In this document: positions 55,301 to 58,300 of the stretch, piece after piece
Layout of the letters: every line of letters begins with the position of its first letter
Numbering within the stretch: position 1 is the first letter of the stretch
Assembly: GCA_947088155.1 (NCBI GenBank)
Contig: CAMUFL010000002.1
Coordinates: 148,275 to 212,274 of the forward strand
Length of the DNA: 64,000 nucleotides
Source: an uncultured Gardnerella sp.
Lineage (GTDB): Bacteria > Actinomycetota > Actinomycetes > Actinomycetales > Bifidobacteriaceae
Direction of reading: 5' to 3'
Made by a program: the position numbers

Positions 55301-58300
55301 GCATTATGCTGAGCAACAGTCTTCTTGAGTAATGCATAAATTTGATCAGCTTTGTCTTCTGTCACACCGCGTAATGAAAAAAGGCGACTCGTTTGTGGAT
55401 ATATAGCAATACAATCACCCAAGGAGTCACTCATTCTTGTCAAACCTAGCAGCGATGCAAATAATGCAAGCAGAAGAACAAGTGCGCATGACAATGAACG
55501 CAACAATCGAGACATCGCATACCCCTATAATAAGTTATTCATACATACAGATTATTTGCAATCCCAATAGGCAGTAGCACGACCAGTGCCTACAAAGGCT
55601 GTAGCATTTGCTAATTCTCCAGGCTTTTTCCAGCCAGAAAATACATCATTAGCGCCGGCAGCATGCGTATACTTGTGAGTCTGCACGTGCGAGTAACTAT
55701 AAACTGCCAACCAACGACCATGTTCCCAGTTGACAGGAGTTCCTTTATAGTAAACAGTTTCAGCTGCAGCAATGCCGCATGGAACTAATGCCATGGAAAT
55801 TGCTAACACTACTGTCGATGCAATACGTGAAATTTTCTTCATCGTAAACCTCCAACTTATTTGCTGGGGGGGGGCAATGTGCCTCCCACTAACATGATAG
55901 ATTCACTTATTTGTTGCGTCAACAAGAAATGCTAACGACTTATTCCGACCGAGTATTTAGACGAACCTTTGCGTAGCAAACGCAAATAAGAAGTTAATCT
56001 GCGATGCAGAATGGTGTTTCGTTGCTATGTTATACGAGTTATCGTGGCAAAAATTGCAAATTTAGCAAAAACTGCCACGATAACTGTGTGCGTCACGCAT
56101 TTGCTGGTTCTATTGCAATACGTCCACCTAATGCTTGAACAACCTTCGCAATAGTTTGGAAGCTGGGATTGCCGTCTCGTCTTAAGCTTTTGTAAAGGCT
56201 TTCCCTTCCAACCTCGGCTTTTTGAGCAATTTCTTTCATTCCTCTAGCTTTTGCAATATCGCCTATAGCGGCTTGCAGTAAACAAGGATCATTTAGTTCT
56301 GCTGCTGCATTGAGATACGCAATAACATCATCATCGTTCTCAAGATACTCACTCGCATCCCATTTACTTATATTTACCATTTCTTCTCCTCAATTAACTG
56401 TGCAAGGAGTATCTTTGCTTGTTTAATATCTTTACTTTGACTACTTTTATCTCCACCAGCGAGTAACAGCATTAGTTTTGAGCCTTTTTGCGCAAAATAC
56501 ACACGATATCCTGGCCCAAAAGTAAAACGCAGCTCGCTAATGCCATTGCAAACTGGATGCAAATCACCTACTGGCTTGCCTGCAATTTCACATAATCTCA
56601 GCCTCGCGTTAATTCGAGCTTTAGATTGCGTATCGCGAAGTTTTTTCATCCAATTGCGATACTCATCTGTTTTAAGTATCTCCATAAAAATATTTTATCC
56701 TGTAGGATACAGTTTTGCAATAATAAGTAAACAGTCATATCAGTTATCGTGACAAAAACTGCAAAATTAGCAAAAATTGCCACGATAACGCGTGATTTCG
56801 GCTGCGCGATATGGTCGTAACTATTGTCGAACAATCAGTTAAAAAACATTGTTTGCGCGTCAACAAAGTTGATGCTTGTTTTAGCATGACGAGGATTGTA
56901 AGAAGTTGGATGCTTTGTAAAAAGCATAAATATTTTCTTATAATCGCGATTTTCTGCATTCTCAACTAAAGTTGCTCGCTGCAACAACTTGCTCACTGCT
57001 TCAGCTTCGTTAAGATTATTACGCCACTTACATTCTGCAATAATAAGCTGCTTGTTAATATCGTCTTCTGCAACAATATCGATATCAGTTTGTTCACGAG
57101 CAATAGGATCCGCACCCCACCATTTACCTAACTTAGTTGGCAAAAAGTCCATTCCGCCAACTTTGCATTGGCGCACAATCCACTGTTCACACATTTTCTC
57201 AAACTGTTGACCTACAAAAGTACTAAACACTTCATGCTCGCCACCAAGAATGCTACTTGCGGCAGCGTGTGAAAGTCCGCGTTCAATCAATCCTTTATTA
57301 GGCGCTACAAACCTATACCAATACGCAAAAAATGGGTCACAAATCTGCCATAATCCTTTTTTGCAATGAAGTGGATTCATGCCAAATGGAATATTTCTTT
57401 CAATTAATCCAAGCCCTTCTAATGTTTTCAAATACACGTTCACTGATGTAGCTGGCAATCCAATGCGATCCGATATTAAAGTCGGAGTATTGCAGCCTGT
57501 TGCAAGAGCGTTTAGTACACTATTGTATGTTGAAGGATCGCGCAATTCTTGACGCATGAGCATGTCTGGCTCAGCGTACAAAATTCCCGAAATGTTAAAG
57601 CATAATTGCTCAAGATTTTCCGCAAACGAAGACCTATTGTCCAACTGCTCAATATAGTATGGTGTTCCTCCAAGGGATGCAAAATAGTTGATTTTATCTT
57701 CCCAAGTAGCATTATTTGGCATAAGCTCAGCTGCTTCAAAAAGATTAAATGGTTGCAGGCGAATCTGCGCGTTACGTCTTCCGTAAAGCGGACTCTTTTT
57801 GCCAAGCACTTCACTTTCCATGAATCCTTCGTTGCTACCACACAAAATAAGAGTCATGTTCGCGTTCTTAAACTTATGATCTATTGCAACTTGAAATGTT
57901 GAGGCTAAAGACTTATCCGCTTGAGCTGCGTACGGAAATTCGTCGAAAACTAGAATAAGTGGAGATTTAGAAGCATTCGGGTCTACGGCGTTAGATTGTT
58001 GTGCAACGAAATCGAGAGCGTCGTTCCAATTATTAAACGATCCTGTAGTTGATGGAAGATTGAAGAAGTCGTACACAGTTCGCGAGAAATCACGCAAATT
58101 CTCGATATTAGTTTGCTCGCGAGCAGTAAAAAGTATTGCGCGCTTATTTTTACAAAAGTGTGAAATAAGAGAAGTTTTTCCTATTCGTCTTCGACCATAA
58201 ACTATTGCCATCTGGAACGAGTGATTGCTGTTTTCATACAGTTTTTCAAGTACTTGTAACTCGTCTTGTCTGCCAACAAAAACCATATTCCACCTGCCGC

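What the first reader, a model, noticed from the sequence alone, without database searches (positions are those of the whole stretch)
55866..55874. C9 homopolymer in the promoter/5' leader of the bacteriocin gene, a candidate transcriptional phase-variation switch
Nine consecutive C on the sense strand end about 24 nt before the start codon, immediately upstream of the RBS. Tracts of this length are slippage-prone. In this position they typically modulate promoter spacing or leader stability.
Basis: seen in the sequence. Interest (0 to 1): 0.6.

Follow-up and report, generated by a model that had tools for sequence, protein, structure and literature searches.

The report
Length-variable poly-C tract in bacteriocin-operon leader
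A run of nine C's just upstream of a Gardnerella bacteriocin/immunity operon is real and changes length (7 to 12) between otherwise identical strains, but it lies in the transcribed leader rather than the promoter, so it probably fine-tunes translation instead of switching transcription on and off.

Summary
C9 lies on the minus strand at 55874..55866, 23 nt before the ATG (55842) of a 96-aa secreted, lactococcin-972-like peptide. That gene is followed by a 732-aa membrane protein and an ABC ATPase. The organism is Gardnerella.

Runs of nine or more G/C occur at three sites in the window, against about 0.02 matches expected. In 30 copies of this leader from isolates and metagenomes the tract is C7 to C12, or interrupted (C6-T-C-A, C4-A-C3-T). 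Copies with no mismatch in 2,660 flanking bases still differ in tract length. So it is a hypermutable simple-sequence repeat of a kind already published for Gardnerella, though not for this locus.

The best promoter (TTGACG-17-TATCAT) is conserved in position in five diverged homologous operons. It ends 19 nt upstream of the tract, so the tract is at about +13 to +21 of the mRNA and not in the spacer.

Folding predicts that the tract's 5' half closes a 5'-terminal hairpin with GGGAGGC. Its 3' half, plus AGC, pairs with the Shine-Dalgarno region. The predicted cost of opening the Shine-Dalgarno sequence rises smoothly from C7 to C12, by about 2.6 kcal/mol. This points to a shallow translational rheostat, which is inferred and not shown. 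Neutral hypermutability remains a serious rival.

New member of a known kind.

The parts
55866..55874 (-). Poly-C tract (C9 here; C7 to C12 or interrupted in relatives). It lies in the predicted 5' leader, about +13 to +21.
55917..55922 (-). -35 hexamer TTGACG of the operon promoter
   Evidence: Invariant in all 30 Gardnerella copies. The equivalent TTGACA is present in four diverged homologous operons.
55894..55899 (-). -10 hexamer TATCAT, with a 17-nt spacer. It ends 19 nt upstream of the tract.
55881..55887 (-). G-rich segment GGGAGGC. It is the predicted 5' arm of a 5'-terminal hairpin whose 3' arm is G plus the first 5 or 6 C of the tract.
   Evidence: MFE -18.2 kcal/mol, z -2.47. In L015 an A in the tract pairs with the U of GGUGGG.
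55849..55856 (-). GUUGGAGG, the Shine-Dalgarno sequence (GGAGG 55853..55849) and its 5' flank. It is the predicted 3' arm of a hairpin whose 5' arm is the last 4 C of the tract plus AGC (55869..55863).
55552..55842 (-). Gene for a 96-aa secreted peptide precursor with a signal peptide ending ...AAA/ETVYY. Lactococcin-972-like.
   Evidence: (TIGR01653 E 0.013, below cutoff)
53317..55515 (-). 732-aa polytopic membrane protein of the bacteriocin-associated 7TM type (immunity/export partner)
   Evidence: TIGR01654 E 9e-17, below cutoff; PF07242 DUF1430 (weak) on the homologue in L044
52639..53310 (-). ABC transporter ATP-binding protein of the lactococcin-972-operon type
   Evidence: TIGR03608 245.8 bits, cutoff 254.85
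56037..56085 (.). Palindromic element GTTATCGTGGCA-N-TGCCACGATAAC bounding the upstream end of the operon cassette
52559..52607 (.). Second copy of the palindromic element, bounding the downstream end of the cassette

Best explanation
The tract is a slipped-strand-mispairing hotspot (a simple-sequence 'contingency' repeat). It lies in the transcribed 5' leader of a Gardnerella operon for a lactococcin-972-like peptide, its membrane partner and an ABC ATPase. Replication slippage changes its length by single bases far faster than point mutation changes the flanks; this step is shown by comparison between strains. Because it lies downstream of the -10 box, it does not alter promoter geometry; this step is inferred from a conserved promoter prediction, with no mapped transcription start. 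In the RNA, the first 5 or 6 C pair with the upstream GGGAGGC to close a 5'-terminal hairpin. The remaining C plus AGC pair with GUUGG-A-GG, which contains the Shine-Dalgarno sequence. C9 is the shortest length at which both helices are complete and abut. Each C added up to about C12 makes the Shine-Dalgarno sequence slightly harder to open, and each C lost makes it easier. The predicted outcome is a graded change of a few-fold in translation of the first cistron (a rheostat), not an ON/OFF switch. This last step is inferred from thermodynamic folding only.
For: Tract present and non-random. Length polymorphism: in 30 copies the counts are C7 1, C8 1, C9 5, C10 10, C11 3, C12 3, plus interrupted alleles. 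In copies with 0 mismatches over 2,660 flanking nt, L019 has C8, L024 C9, L020/L021/L025 C10, and L008 C11 versus L009 C10. The genus is known for this. Gardnerella genomes carry a median of 20 G/C tracts of 8 bp or more, about 70% of them within 300 bp upstream of ORFs, and 9-to-10 switching between sister colonies was verified by Sanger sequencing at another tract (PMC11287997). A poly-C tract in nanH3 varies within populations (bioRxiv 10.1101/2020.09.16.300947). Promoter placement: with conservation of TTGAC[AG]-17/18-(-10) at 32 to 55 nt from the ATG in five diverged operons. RNA model: the two-hairpin MFE has z -2.47; the SD hairpin is kept in the consensus of 11 alleles. The SD opening energy is 4.8, 5.2, 6.2, 6.9, 7.3 and 7.4 kcal/mol for C7 to C12, and 5.0 to 5.4 for interrupted alleles. 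An 83%-identical homologue keeps a C-rich block (C5TCTC) at the same place, between GGAGG-like repeats and the SD. Precedents for leader or upstream homopolymers giving graded control: H. pylori tlpB (PMC8295292) and M. catarrhalis uspA1 (PMC7302503).
Against: There are no expression data of any kind, and the transcription start is predicted, not mapped. The predicted energy differences are small: 0.1 to 1.0 kcal/mol per step, and about 1.2 kcal/mol across the common C9 to C12 range. No compensatory (two-sided) covariation supports either helix. The test has little power, because the 3' arm is all G/U and every observed change is a transition. Many alleles carry GGGAGAC, which weakens the 5' hairpin, and the diverged L028 leader does not fold better than shuffles. 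Seven of 30 alleles are interrupted, so a long tract is dispensable. Tract lengths come from assemblies, where homopolymer calls can be wrong. Within-clone switching at this particular tract has not been shown.
Confidence: 0.45

Rival explanations
1. Neutral hypermutable tract. A C-rich leader segment drifted into a homopolymer that slips freely, in a lineage that probably corrects indels poorly. Its length has no meaningful effect on expression, so the variation is mutational noise tolerated in a non-coding leader.
For: The observed lengths form a continuous spread (7 to 12) with no sign of two favoured states. Interrupted alleles occur in 7 of 30 copies. The tract persists unchanged in character where the peptide gene is only a 30-aa remnant. 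Predicted structural effects over C9 to C12 are small, and there is no covariation.
Against: G/C runs in the window are either 6 or shorter, or 9 or longer. All three long runs sit at the 5' ends of genes for secreted or surface proteins, the classic pattern of selected contingency loci. The uninterrupted tract is kept in representative genomes of several Gardnerella species. A C-rich block is conserved at the same leader position in a diverged homologue.
Confidence: 0.33
2. Classical transcriptional phase variation. Tract length changes promoter geometry (the -35/-10 spacing, or the distance of an activator or repressor site from the promoter) and switches transcription on and off.
For: This is the commonest mechanism for intergenic homopolymers in other bacteria. 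In this same window, G11 at 28247..28257 does lie between a TTGATT and a TAGATT hexamer with a 19-nt spacer. A repressor binding across +1 to +30 cannot be excluded.
Against: The tract lies 19 nt downstream of the conserved -10. No -10-like hexamer with a usable start lies between the tract and the RBS: only 12 nt separate them, and a start there would remove the SD. Length changes leave everything from -35 to +12 untouched.
Confidence: 0.07
3. Target for a trans-acting factor. The poly-C leader would be bound by a G-rich small RNA (the mirror image of RepG and the tlpB G-repeat) or by a C-binding protein such as Rho, with tract length setting the strength of repression or premature termination.
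For: There is precedent for a leader homopolymer read by a small RNA with length-dependent outcome (PMC8295292). Poly-C is the preferred Rho ligand (own knowledge).
Against: No candidate small RNA was found, and Rfam gives nothing in the region. Cis partners (GGGAGGC and the SD) already account for every C at C9. This idea was not tested genome-wide.
Confidence: 0.08
4. Frame-switching upstream ORF. TTG at 55877..55875, 4 nt after GGGAGG, would start a mini-ORF through the tract. With C9 or C12 it reads M-P-P-P(-P)-S-K-stop before the SD. With C10 it fuses in frame to the peptide gene. With C8 or C11 it runs across the main AUG. Tract length would thereby couple or uncouple translation.
For: Reading the sequence gives exactly these three frame outcomes, and CCC codons encode polyproline, a known stalling motif (own knowledge).
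Against: The SD-to-TTG spacing is only 4 nt, and TTG is a weak start. L010 has TTT in place of TTG. The diverged L028 leader has no equivalent ORF. The SD-like GGGAGG would sit at the extreme 5' end of the mRNA and inside a hairpin.
Confidence: 0.04

Closest known systems
Gardnerella homopolymer-tract phase variation (nanH3 poly-C; GA-module protein tract; genome-wide G/C tracts of 8 bp or more) - PMC11287997; bioRxiv 10.1101/2020.09.16.300947
   Same: Same genus and same kind of repeat (poly-G/C of 8 to 12), with the same location bias: most tracts lie within 300 bp upstream of ORFs. Length differs between clones and strains.
   Different: The characterised cases are inside coding sequences (frameshift ON/OFF) or are uncharacterised 'upstream' tracts. 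This locus was not mentioned: 'bacteriocin' has 0 occurrences in the text and supplement. Here the tract lies between the -10 box and the RBS.
Helicobacter pylori tlpB-hp0102 leader G-repeat read by the small RNA RepG (PMC8295292)
   Same: A homopolymer in the 5' UTR of an operon whose length varies between strains (6 to 16). The effect is post-transcriptional and gradual rather than ON/OFF, through base pairing of the repeat with a complementary C/U- or G-rich partner.
   Different: There the partner is a trans-acting small RNA and the repeat is poly-G. Here the complementary partners are in cis (upstream GGGAGGC and the SD). No small RNA is known, and no experimental data exist.
Moraxella catarrhalis uspA1 G(n) tract upstream of the ORF (PMC7302503)
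   Same: A poly-G tract of 8 to 12 a few tens of nt upstream of the start codon. Single-base changes give graded high/low mRNA levels.
   Different: It is in a Gram-negative adhesin gene, and its effect was measured at the mRNA level. Here the effect is unmeasured and is predicted to be mainly translational.
Promoter-spacer homopolymers (e.g. Neisseria porA/opc, Bordetella fim; own knowledge)
   Same: An intergenic G/C homopolymer that changes length by slippage.
   Different: Those tracts sit between or upstream of the -35 and -10 hexamers and change promoter strength. This one is downstream of the -10.
Lactococcin 972 operon (lcn972, a 7TM protein and an ABC ATPase; TIGR01653/TIGR01654/TIGR03608)
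   Same: Same three-gene order: a small Sec-dependent peptide, a large polytopic membrane protein, then an ABC ATPase.
   Different: All three matches are below the NCBIfam trusted cutoffs. There is no Pfam hit for the peptide and no activity data. A homopolymeric leader tract is not a described feature of that operon, to my knowledge.

Membership tests
Simple-sequence-repeat contingency locus (slipped-strand mispairing) | Uninterrupted homopolymer long enough to slip (about 8 nt or more) | tested here: met
   C9 at 55874..55866; 0.02 matches expected in shuffles
Simple-sequence-repeat contingency locus (slipped-strand mispairing) | Repeat number differs between closely related strains while the flanks are conserved | tested here: met
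   C7 to C12 in 30 copies. Copies identical over 2,660 flanking nt differ in tract length. Caveat: the lengths are assembly consensus calls.
Simple-sequence-repeat contingency locus (slipped-strand mispairing) | High-frequency, reversible length change within a clonal population | not testable with these tools
   This needs reads or colony sequencing. It has been shown for another Gardnerella tract by Sanger sequencing (PMC11287997), not for this one.
Simple-sequence-repeat contingency locus (slipped-strand mispairing) | Repeat length changes expression of the associated gene | not testable with these tools
   Only a thermodynamic prediction is available: SD opening energy rises from 4.8 to 7.4 kcal/mol from C7 to C12.
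Transcriptional phase variation by promoter-spacer length | Repeat lies between the -35 and -10 hexamers, or between an activator site and the promoter | tested here: not met
   The tract starts 19 nt downstream of the -10 TATCAT. Promoter position is conserved in five diverged operons. The transcription start itself is unmapped.
Leader-homopolymer post-transcriptional rheostat (tlpB/RepG type) | Homopolymer within the 5' UTR of the mRNA | tested here: inconclusive
   This follows from the predicted promoter. No experimental transcription start is available.
Leader-homopolymer post-transcriptional rheostat (tlpB/RepG type) | A complementary RNA partner whose pairing depends on repeat length | tested here: inconclusive
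   Cis partners are predicted: GGGAGGC and GUUGGAGG. There is no covariation support. A trans small RNA was neither sought genome-wide nor found.
Lactococcin 972 family bacteriocin operon | Peptide matches the family model (TIGR01653 / Pfam Lactococcin_972) above cutoff | tested here: not met
   TIGR01653 scores 15.7 bits against a cutoff of 32.1, E 0.013. No Pfam hit for the window peptide or for six homologues. The AF2 model is too poor to test the fold.
Lactococcin 972 family bacteriocin operon | Peptide gene followed by a bacteriocin-associated 7TM membrane protein and a dedicated ABC ATPase | tested here: met
   The gene order is present. Best NCBIfam hits are TIGR01654 (E 9e-17) and TIGR03608 (245.8 bits, cutoff 254.85), both below cutoff but specific.
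Lactococcin 972 family bacteriocin operon | Secreted peptide with antibacterial activity | not testable with these tools
   Only a Sec-type signal peptide is visible in the sequence.

The most novel reading that the evidence does not exclude
The poly-C tract would be a self-contained, cis-acting RNA rheostat. One hypermutable homopolymer supplies arms to two adjacent helices, a 5'-terminal stabiliser hairpin and a Shine-Dalgarno-sequestering hairpin. Single-base replication slips would then dial translation of a bacteriocin/immunity operon up or down. This would generate producer, immune-only and low-expressing subpopulations within a clone of a bacterial-vaginosis organism. It would be SSR-driven bet-hedging of interbacterial competition that needs no small RNA or protein reader.
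Probability: 0.25. Interest if true: 0.6.

Novelty: new member of a known kind. Interest (0 to 1): 0.4.

Why it matters
Gardnerella is central to bacterial vaginosis, and its abundant G/C tracts have only recently been recognised as a source of clonal heterogeneity. Most attention has gone to surface proteins. If tract length tunes this operon, competition and immunity functions (bacteriocin production and self-protection) are also part of the phase-variable repertoire. The mechanism would then be a rare cis-RNA version of the leader-repeat rheostat known from H. pylori. In practice, the result tells annotators that this tract belongs to the leader and not the promoter. It also shows that many strains keep only the immunity/transport genes behind the same variable leader.

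Tried and rejected
1. Promoter-spacer reading: rejected, because the tract is 19 nt downstream of the conserved -10.
2. Upstream-ORF frame switch (TTG 55877..55875): considered, but judged weak. The SD spacing is 4 nt, L010 has TTT, and the ORF is absent from L028.
3. Covariation test of the two helices: no two-sided changes. It is uninformative because the 3' arm is all G/U.
4. Rfam scan of 55700..56200 at E up to 10: only noise.
5. Testing the lactococcin-972 fold: the AF2 model had pLDDT 47 and was not usable, so no fold search was run. Sequence and profile searches of the PDB gave only spurious antibody hits. Pfam found nothing for the peptide family.
6. A JGI metagenome scan for the leader with a variable gap gave a single hit, L031, so no large population sample was obtained.
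7. Exact-protein look-ups for the 732-aa protein and for a neighbour of the 45605 tract found nothing. The look-up for the neighbour of the 28247 tract returned only a 1.6-kb contig. The variability of the other two tracts was therefore not assessed.
8. Contig ends in Logan assemblies do not coincide with the tract; they coincide with the flanking palindromes. Assembly breaks therefore give no evidence for within-sample heterogeneity.
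Full report
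**1. Observation.**
The + strand carries G9 at 55866..55874, which is C9 on the minus strand. A 96-aa ORF runs on the minus strand from 55842 to 55552. It has a GGAGG ribosome-binding site at 55853..55849 and a typical signal peptide (MKKISRIASTVVLAISMALVPCGIAAA/ETVYY...).

There are 23 nt between the tract and the ATG, and 12 nt between the tract and the RBS.

The tract is not a chance feature. The window (42% G+C) has three G/C runs of 9 or more: G9 at 55866, G10 at 45605 and G11 at 28247. It has none of length 7 or 8. Base composition predicts about 0.1 sites, and dinucleotide shuffles predict 0.02 matches.

**2. What surrounds it.**
- *Peptide.* It has only a sub-threshold match to the lactococcin-972 model (TIGR01653, E 0.013) and no Pfam hit.
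- *Downstream genes.* The peptide gene is followed by a 732-aa membrane protein whose best model is the bacteriocin-associated 7TM family (TIGR01654, E 9e-17). Next comes an ABC ATPase whose best model is the lactococcin-972-operon ATPase (TIGR03608, 245.8 bits, just under the cutoff). The gene order is that of a lactococcin-972-type operon. Calling the peptide a bacteriocin is a reasonable inference from context, not a demonstrated fact.
- *Upstream genes.* On the same strand lies a HigB/HigA-like toxin-antitoxin pair (56685..56093).
- *Organism.* The locus is from Gardnerella. Relatives were found in G. vaginalis, G. piotii, G. greenwoodii and unnamed Gardnerella species. The nearest relative outside the genus is in Lactobacillus corticis.

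**3. Where the tract sits relative to the promoter.**
The only good sigma-70-type site on the minus strand is TTGACG (55922..55917), a 17-nt spacer, then TATCAT (55899..55894). Both hexamers are invariant in all 30 Gardnerella copies.

Four diverged homologous operons (51 to 83% peptide identity) each carry TTGACA-17/18-(-10-like) ending 32 to 55 nt before the ATG. This is comparative support for the promoter assignment.

The -10 ends 19 nt upstream of the tract. With a start about 7 nt after the -10, the tract occupies roughly +13 to +21 of a leader of about 45 nt. No plausible -10 lies in the 12 nt between the tract and the RBS. The tract is therefore in the leader, not in the promoter spacer. 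This rests on prediction; no transcription start is mapped.

**4. Is it variable?**
I collected 30 copies of the leader from isolate genomes and metagenome assemblies (extraction). The tract lengths were:

| Allele | Copies |
|---|---|
| C7 | 1 |
| C8 | 1 |
| C9 | 5 |
| C10 | 10 |
| C11 | 3 |
| C12 | 3 |
| C6-T-C-A (interrupted) | 6 |
| C4-A-C3-T (interrupted) | 1 |

Copies with no mismatch and no other indel over 2,660 flanking bases still differ in tract length. L019 has C8, L024 has C9, and L020, L021 and L025 have C10. L008 has C11 and L009 has C10. The tract therefore changes much faster than the flanks, and no other indel occurs in those 2.6 kb.

One caveat applies: these are assembly consensus calls, and homopolymer calls can be wrong.

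Published work fits this picture. Gardnerella genomes have a median of 20 G/C tracts of 8 bp or more, about 70% of them within 300 bp upstream of ORFs. Sanger sequencing of sister colonies showed 9-to-10 switching at another tract (PMC11287997). The poly-C tract in nanH3 varies within populations (bioRxiv 10.1101/2020.09.16.300947). Neither the text nor the supplement of the first paper mentions a bacteriocin.

**5. How it may work.**
The C9 leader RNA (53 nt from 55889) folds into two adjacent hairpins (MFE -18.2 kcal/mol, z -2.47).
- *Hairpin 1.* GGG-A-GGCA pairs with UGCC-CCC and uses the first five C.
- *Hairpin 2.* CC-CCAGC pairs with GUUGG-A-GG, which is the Shine-Dalgarno region, and uses the last four C.

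At C9 every C is paired and the helices abut. Shorter tracts lose the outer G-C pairs of the Shine-Dalgarno helix. Longer tracts add a linker and more pairing registers.

The ensemble cost of making the Shine-Dalgarno sequence single-stranded rises monotonically with tract length:

| Allele | SD opening energy (kcal/mol) |
|---|---|
| C5, C6 | 4.6 |
| C7 | 4.8 |
| C8 | 5.2 |
| C9 | 6.2 |
| C10 | 6.9 |
| C11 | 7.3 |
| C12 | 7.4 |
| C13 and longer | 7.5 (plateau) |
| Interrupted alleles | 5.0 to 5.4 |

With the usual scaling of initiation rate to unfolding energy (own knowledge, roughly e^(-0.45 x ddG)), the C7 to C12 range corresponds to about a 3-fold change. A single step corresponds to 1.1- to 1.6-fold. 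That is a shallow rheostat, not an on/off switch.

Comparative support is modest.
- The RNAalifold consensus keeps the Shine-Dalgarno hairpin in all 11 distinct alleles, but only through one-sided changes. This has little weight because the 3' arm consists only of G and U.
- In L015 the interrupting A pairs with the U of an extended GGUGGG stem.
- An 83%-identical homologue (L028) keeps a C-rich block (C5TCTC) between GGAGG-like repeats and the Shine-Dalgarno sequence, although its fold is not better than shuffles.
- Many alleles carry GGGAGAC, which weakens hairpin 1.

**6. Rivals.**
- *Neutral hypermutability* is the main rival. The length spread is continuous, interrupted alleles are common, and the predicted effects are small. 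Against it, G/C run lengths in the window are bimodal. All three long runs sit at the 5' ends of genes for secreted or surface proteins. The uninterrupted tract also persists across species.
- *Promoter-spacer control* is unlikely, for the reasons in section 3.
- *A trans-acting reader* (a G-rich small RNA, or Rho) is untested.
- *A frame-switching mini-ORF* from TTG 55877..55875 is possible on paper but poorly supported.

**7. Comparison with known systems.**
Mechanistically the nearest precedent is the H. pylori tlpB-hp0102 leader G-repeat. Its length sets a gradual post-transcriptional response through pairing with the small RNA RepG (PMC8295292). The difference is that the complementary partners here are in cis.

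The M. catarrhalis uspA1 G(n) tract upstream of its ORF gives graded mRNA levels (PMC7302503).

As a member of a family, this is one more Gardnerella G/C contingency tract. Tract length and inter-strain polymorphism meet the definition. Within-clone switching and an effect on expression could not be tested. It fails the defining feature of promoter-spacer switches.

**8. Verdict.**
The feature is real and hypervariable. It is a new member of a known kind. Interest is moderate (0.4). The specific locus and the possible cis-RNA rheostat are new and testable, but the general phenomenon is published and no functional data exist.

Noticed in passing
window 45605..45614 (G10 on +, C10 on the sense - strand), inside ORF 42355..45732 (-): A poly-C tract lies about 40 codons into a 1,125-aa ORF with a signal peptide and Listeria-Bacteroides (InlB B-type) repeats. 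It is in frame here. This looks like a classic frameshift ON/OFF contingency tract in a surface protein.
   Followed up: partly
window 28247..28257 (G11, + strand), upstream of ORF 28370..30574 (+): A poly-G tract lies 112 nt upstream of a 734-aa secreted leucine-rich-repeat (BspA-like) protein. It sits between TTGATT (28233..28238) and TAGATT (28258..28263), giving a 19-nt spacer at G11, which would become 17 or 18 nt at G9 or G10. It is a better candidate for a true promoter-spacer switch than the tract under review.
   Followed up: partly
window 50363..50389, 52559..52607, 56037..56085, 56744..56788: Four copies of a palindromic element, GTTATCGTGGCA-N(5-24)-TGCCACGATAAC, were found: 9 half-site matches against 1.2 expected. 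They separate gene modules: AbiEi/AbiEii plus DUF2089, the bacteriocin operon, the HigBA-like pair and a DUF234 ATPase. In other Gardnerella genomes the same modules appear in different order and orientation. In L033, L035 and L040, for example, the ABC operon is inverted next to HigA. Most contigs carrying the peptide are 2 to 5 kb, as if assemblies break at these repeats. This may be a cassette-shuffling region.
   Followed up: partly
L012-L015, L018-L026, L037, L039 (30-aa remnant); L031 (32-aa remnant); compare window 55552..55842: In 17 of 30 related loci the peptide gene is not intact: 15 carry a 30-aa in-frame remnant (...VPC|ATAYWDCK), L031 a 32-aa one (...AVLA|NATAFVG...), and L016 the 30-aa-type deletion plus a frameshift. 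That means at least two independent deletions. The leader, the membrane protein and the ABC genes are kept. This suggests immune non-producer ('cheater') genotypes.
   Followed up: partly
L016 (G. piotii UGent 18.01), just after the start codon of the remnant gene: An extra A in the run AAGAAAA (4 A to 5 A) right after the ATG shifts the frame of the remnant ORF. This locus also has a G10 run at L016:2107, about 850 nt upstream.
   Followed up: no
L011 (Lactobacillus corticis), 32 nt before the ATG of the homologous peptide gene: The leader of the Lactobacillus homologue is a single hairpin, AGCCCCAA...UUGGGGCU (z -2.78), that buries the G-rich RBS-like segment. It shares the motif CCCC-AAAUAA(A)GUUG with the Gardnerella leader. 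This hints that a C-rich/SD pairing is an old feature of these operons.
   Followed up: partly
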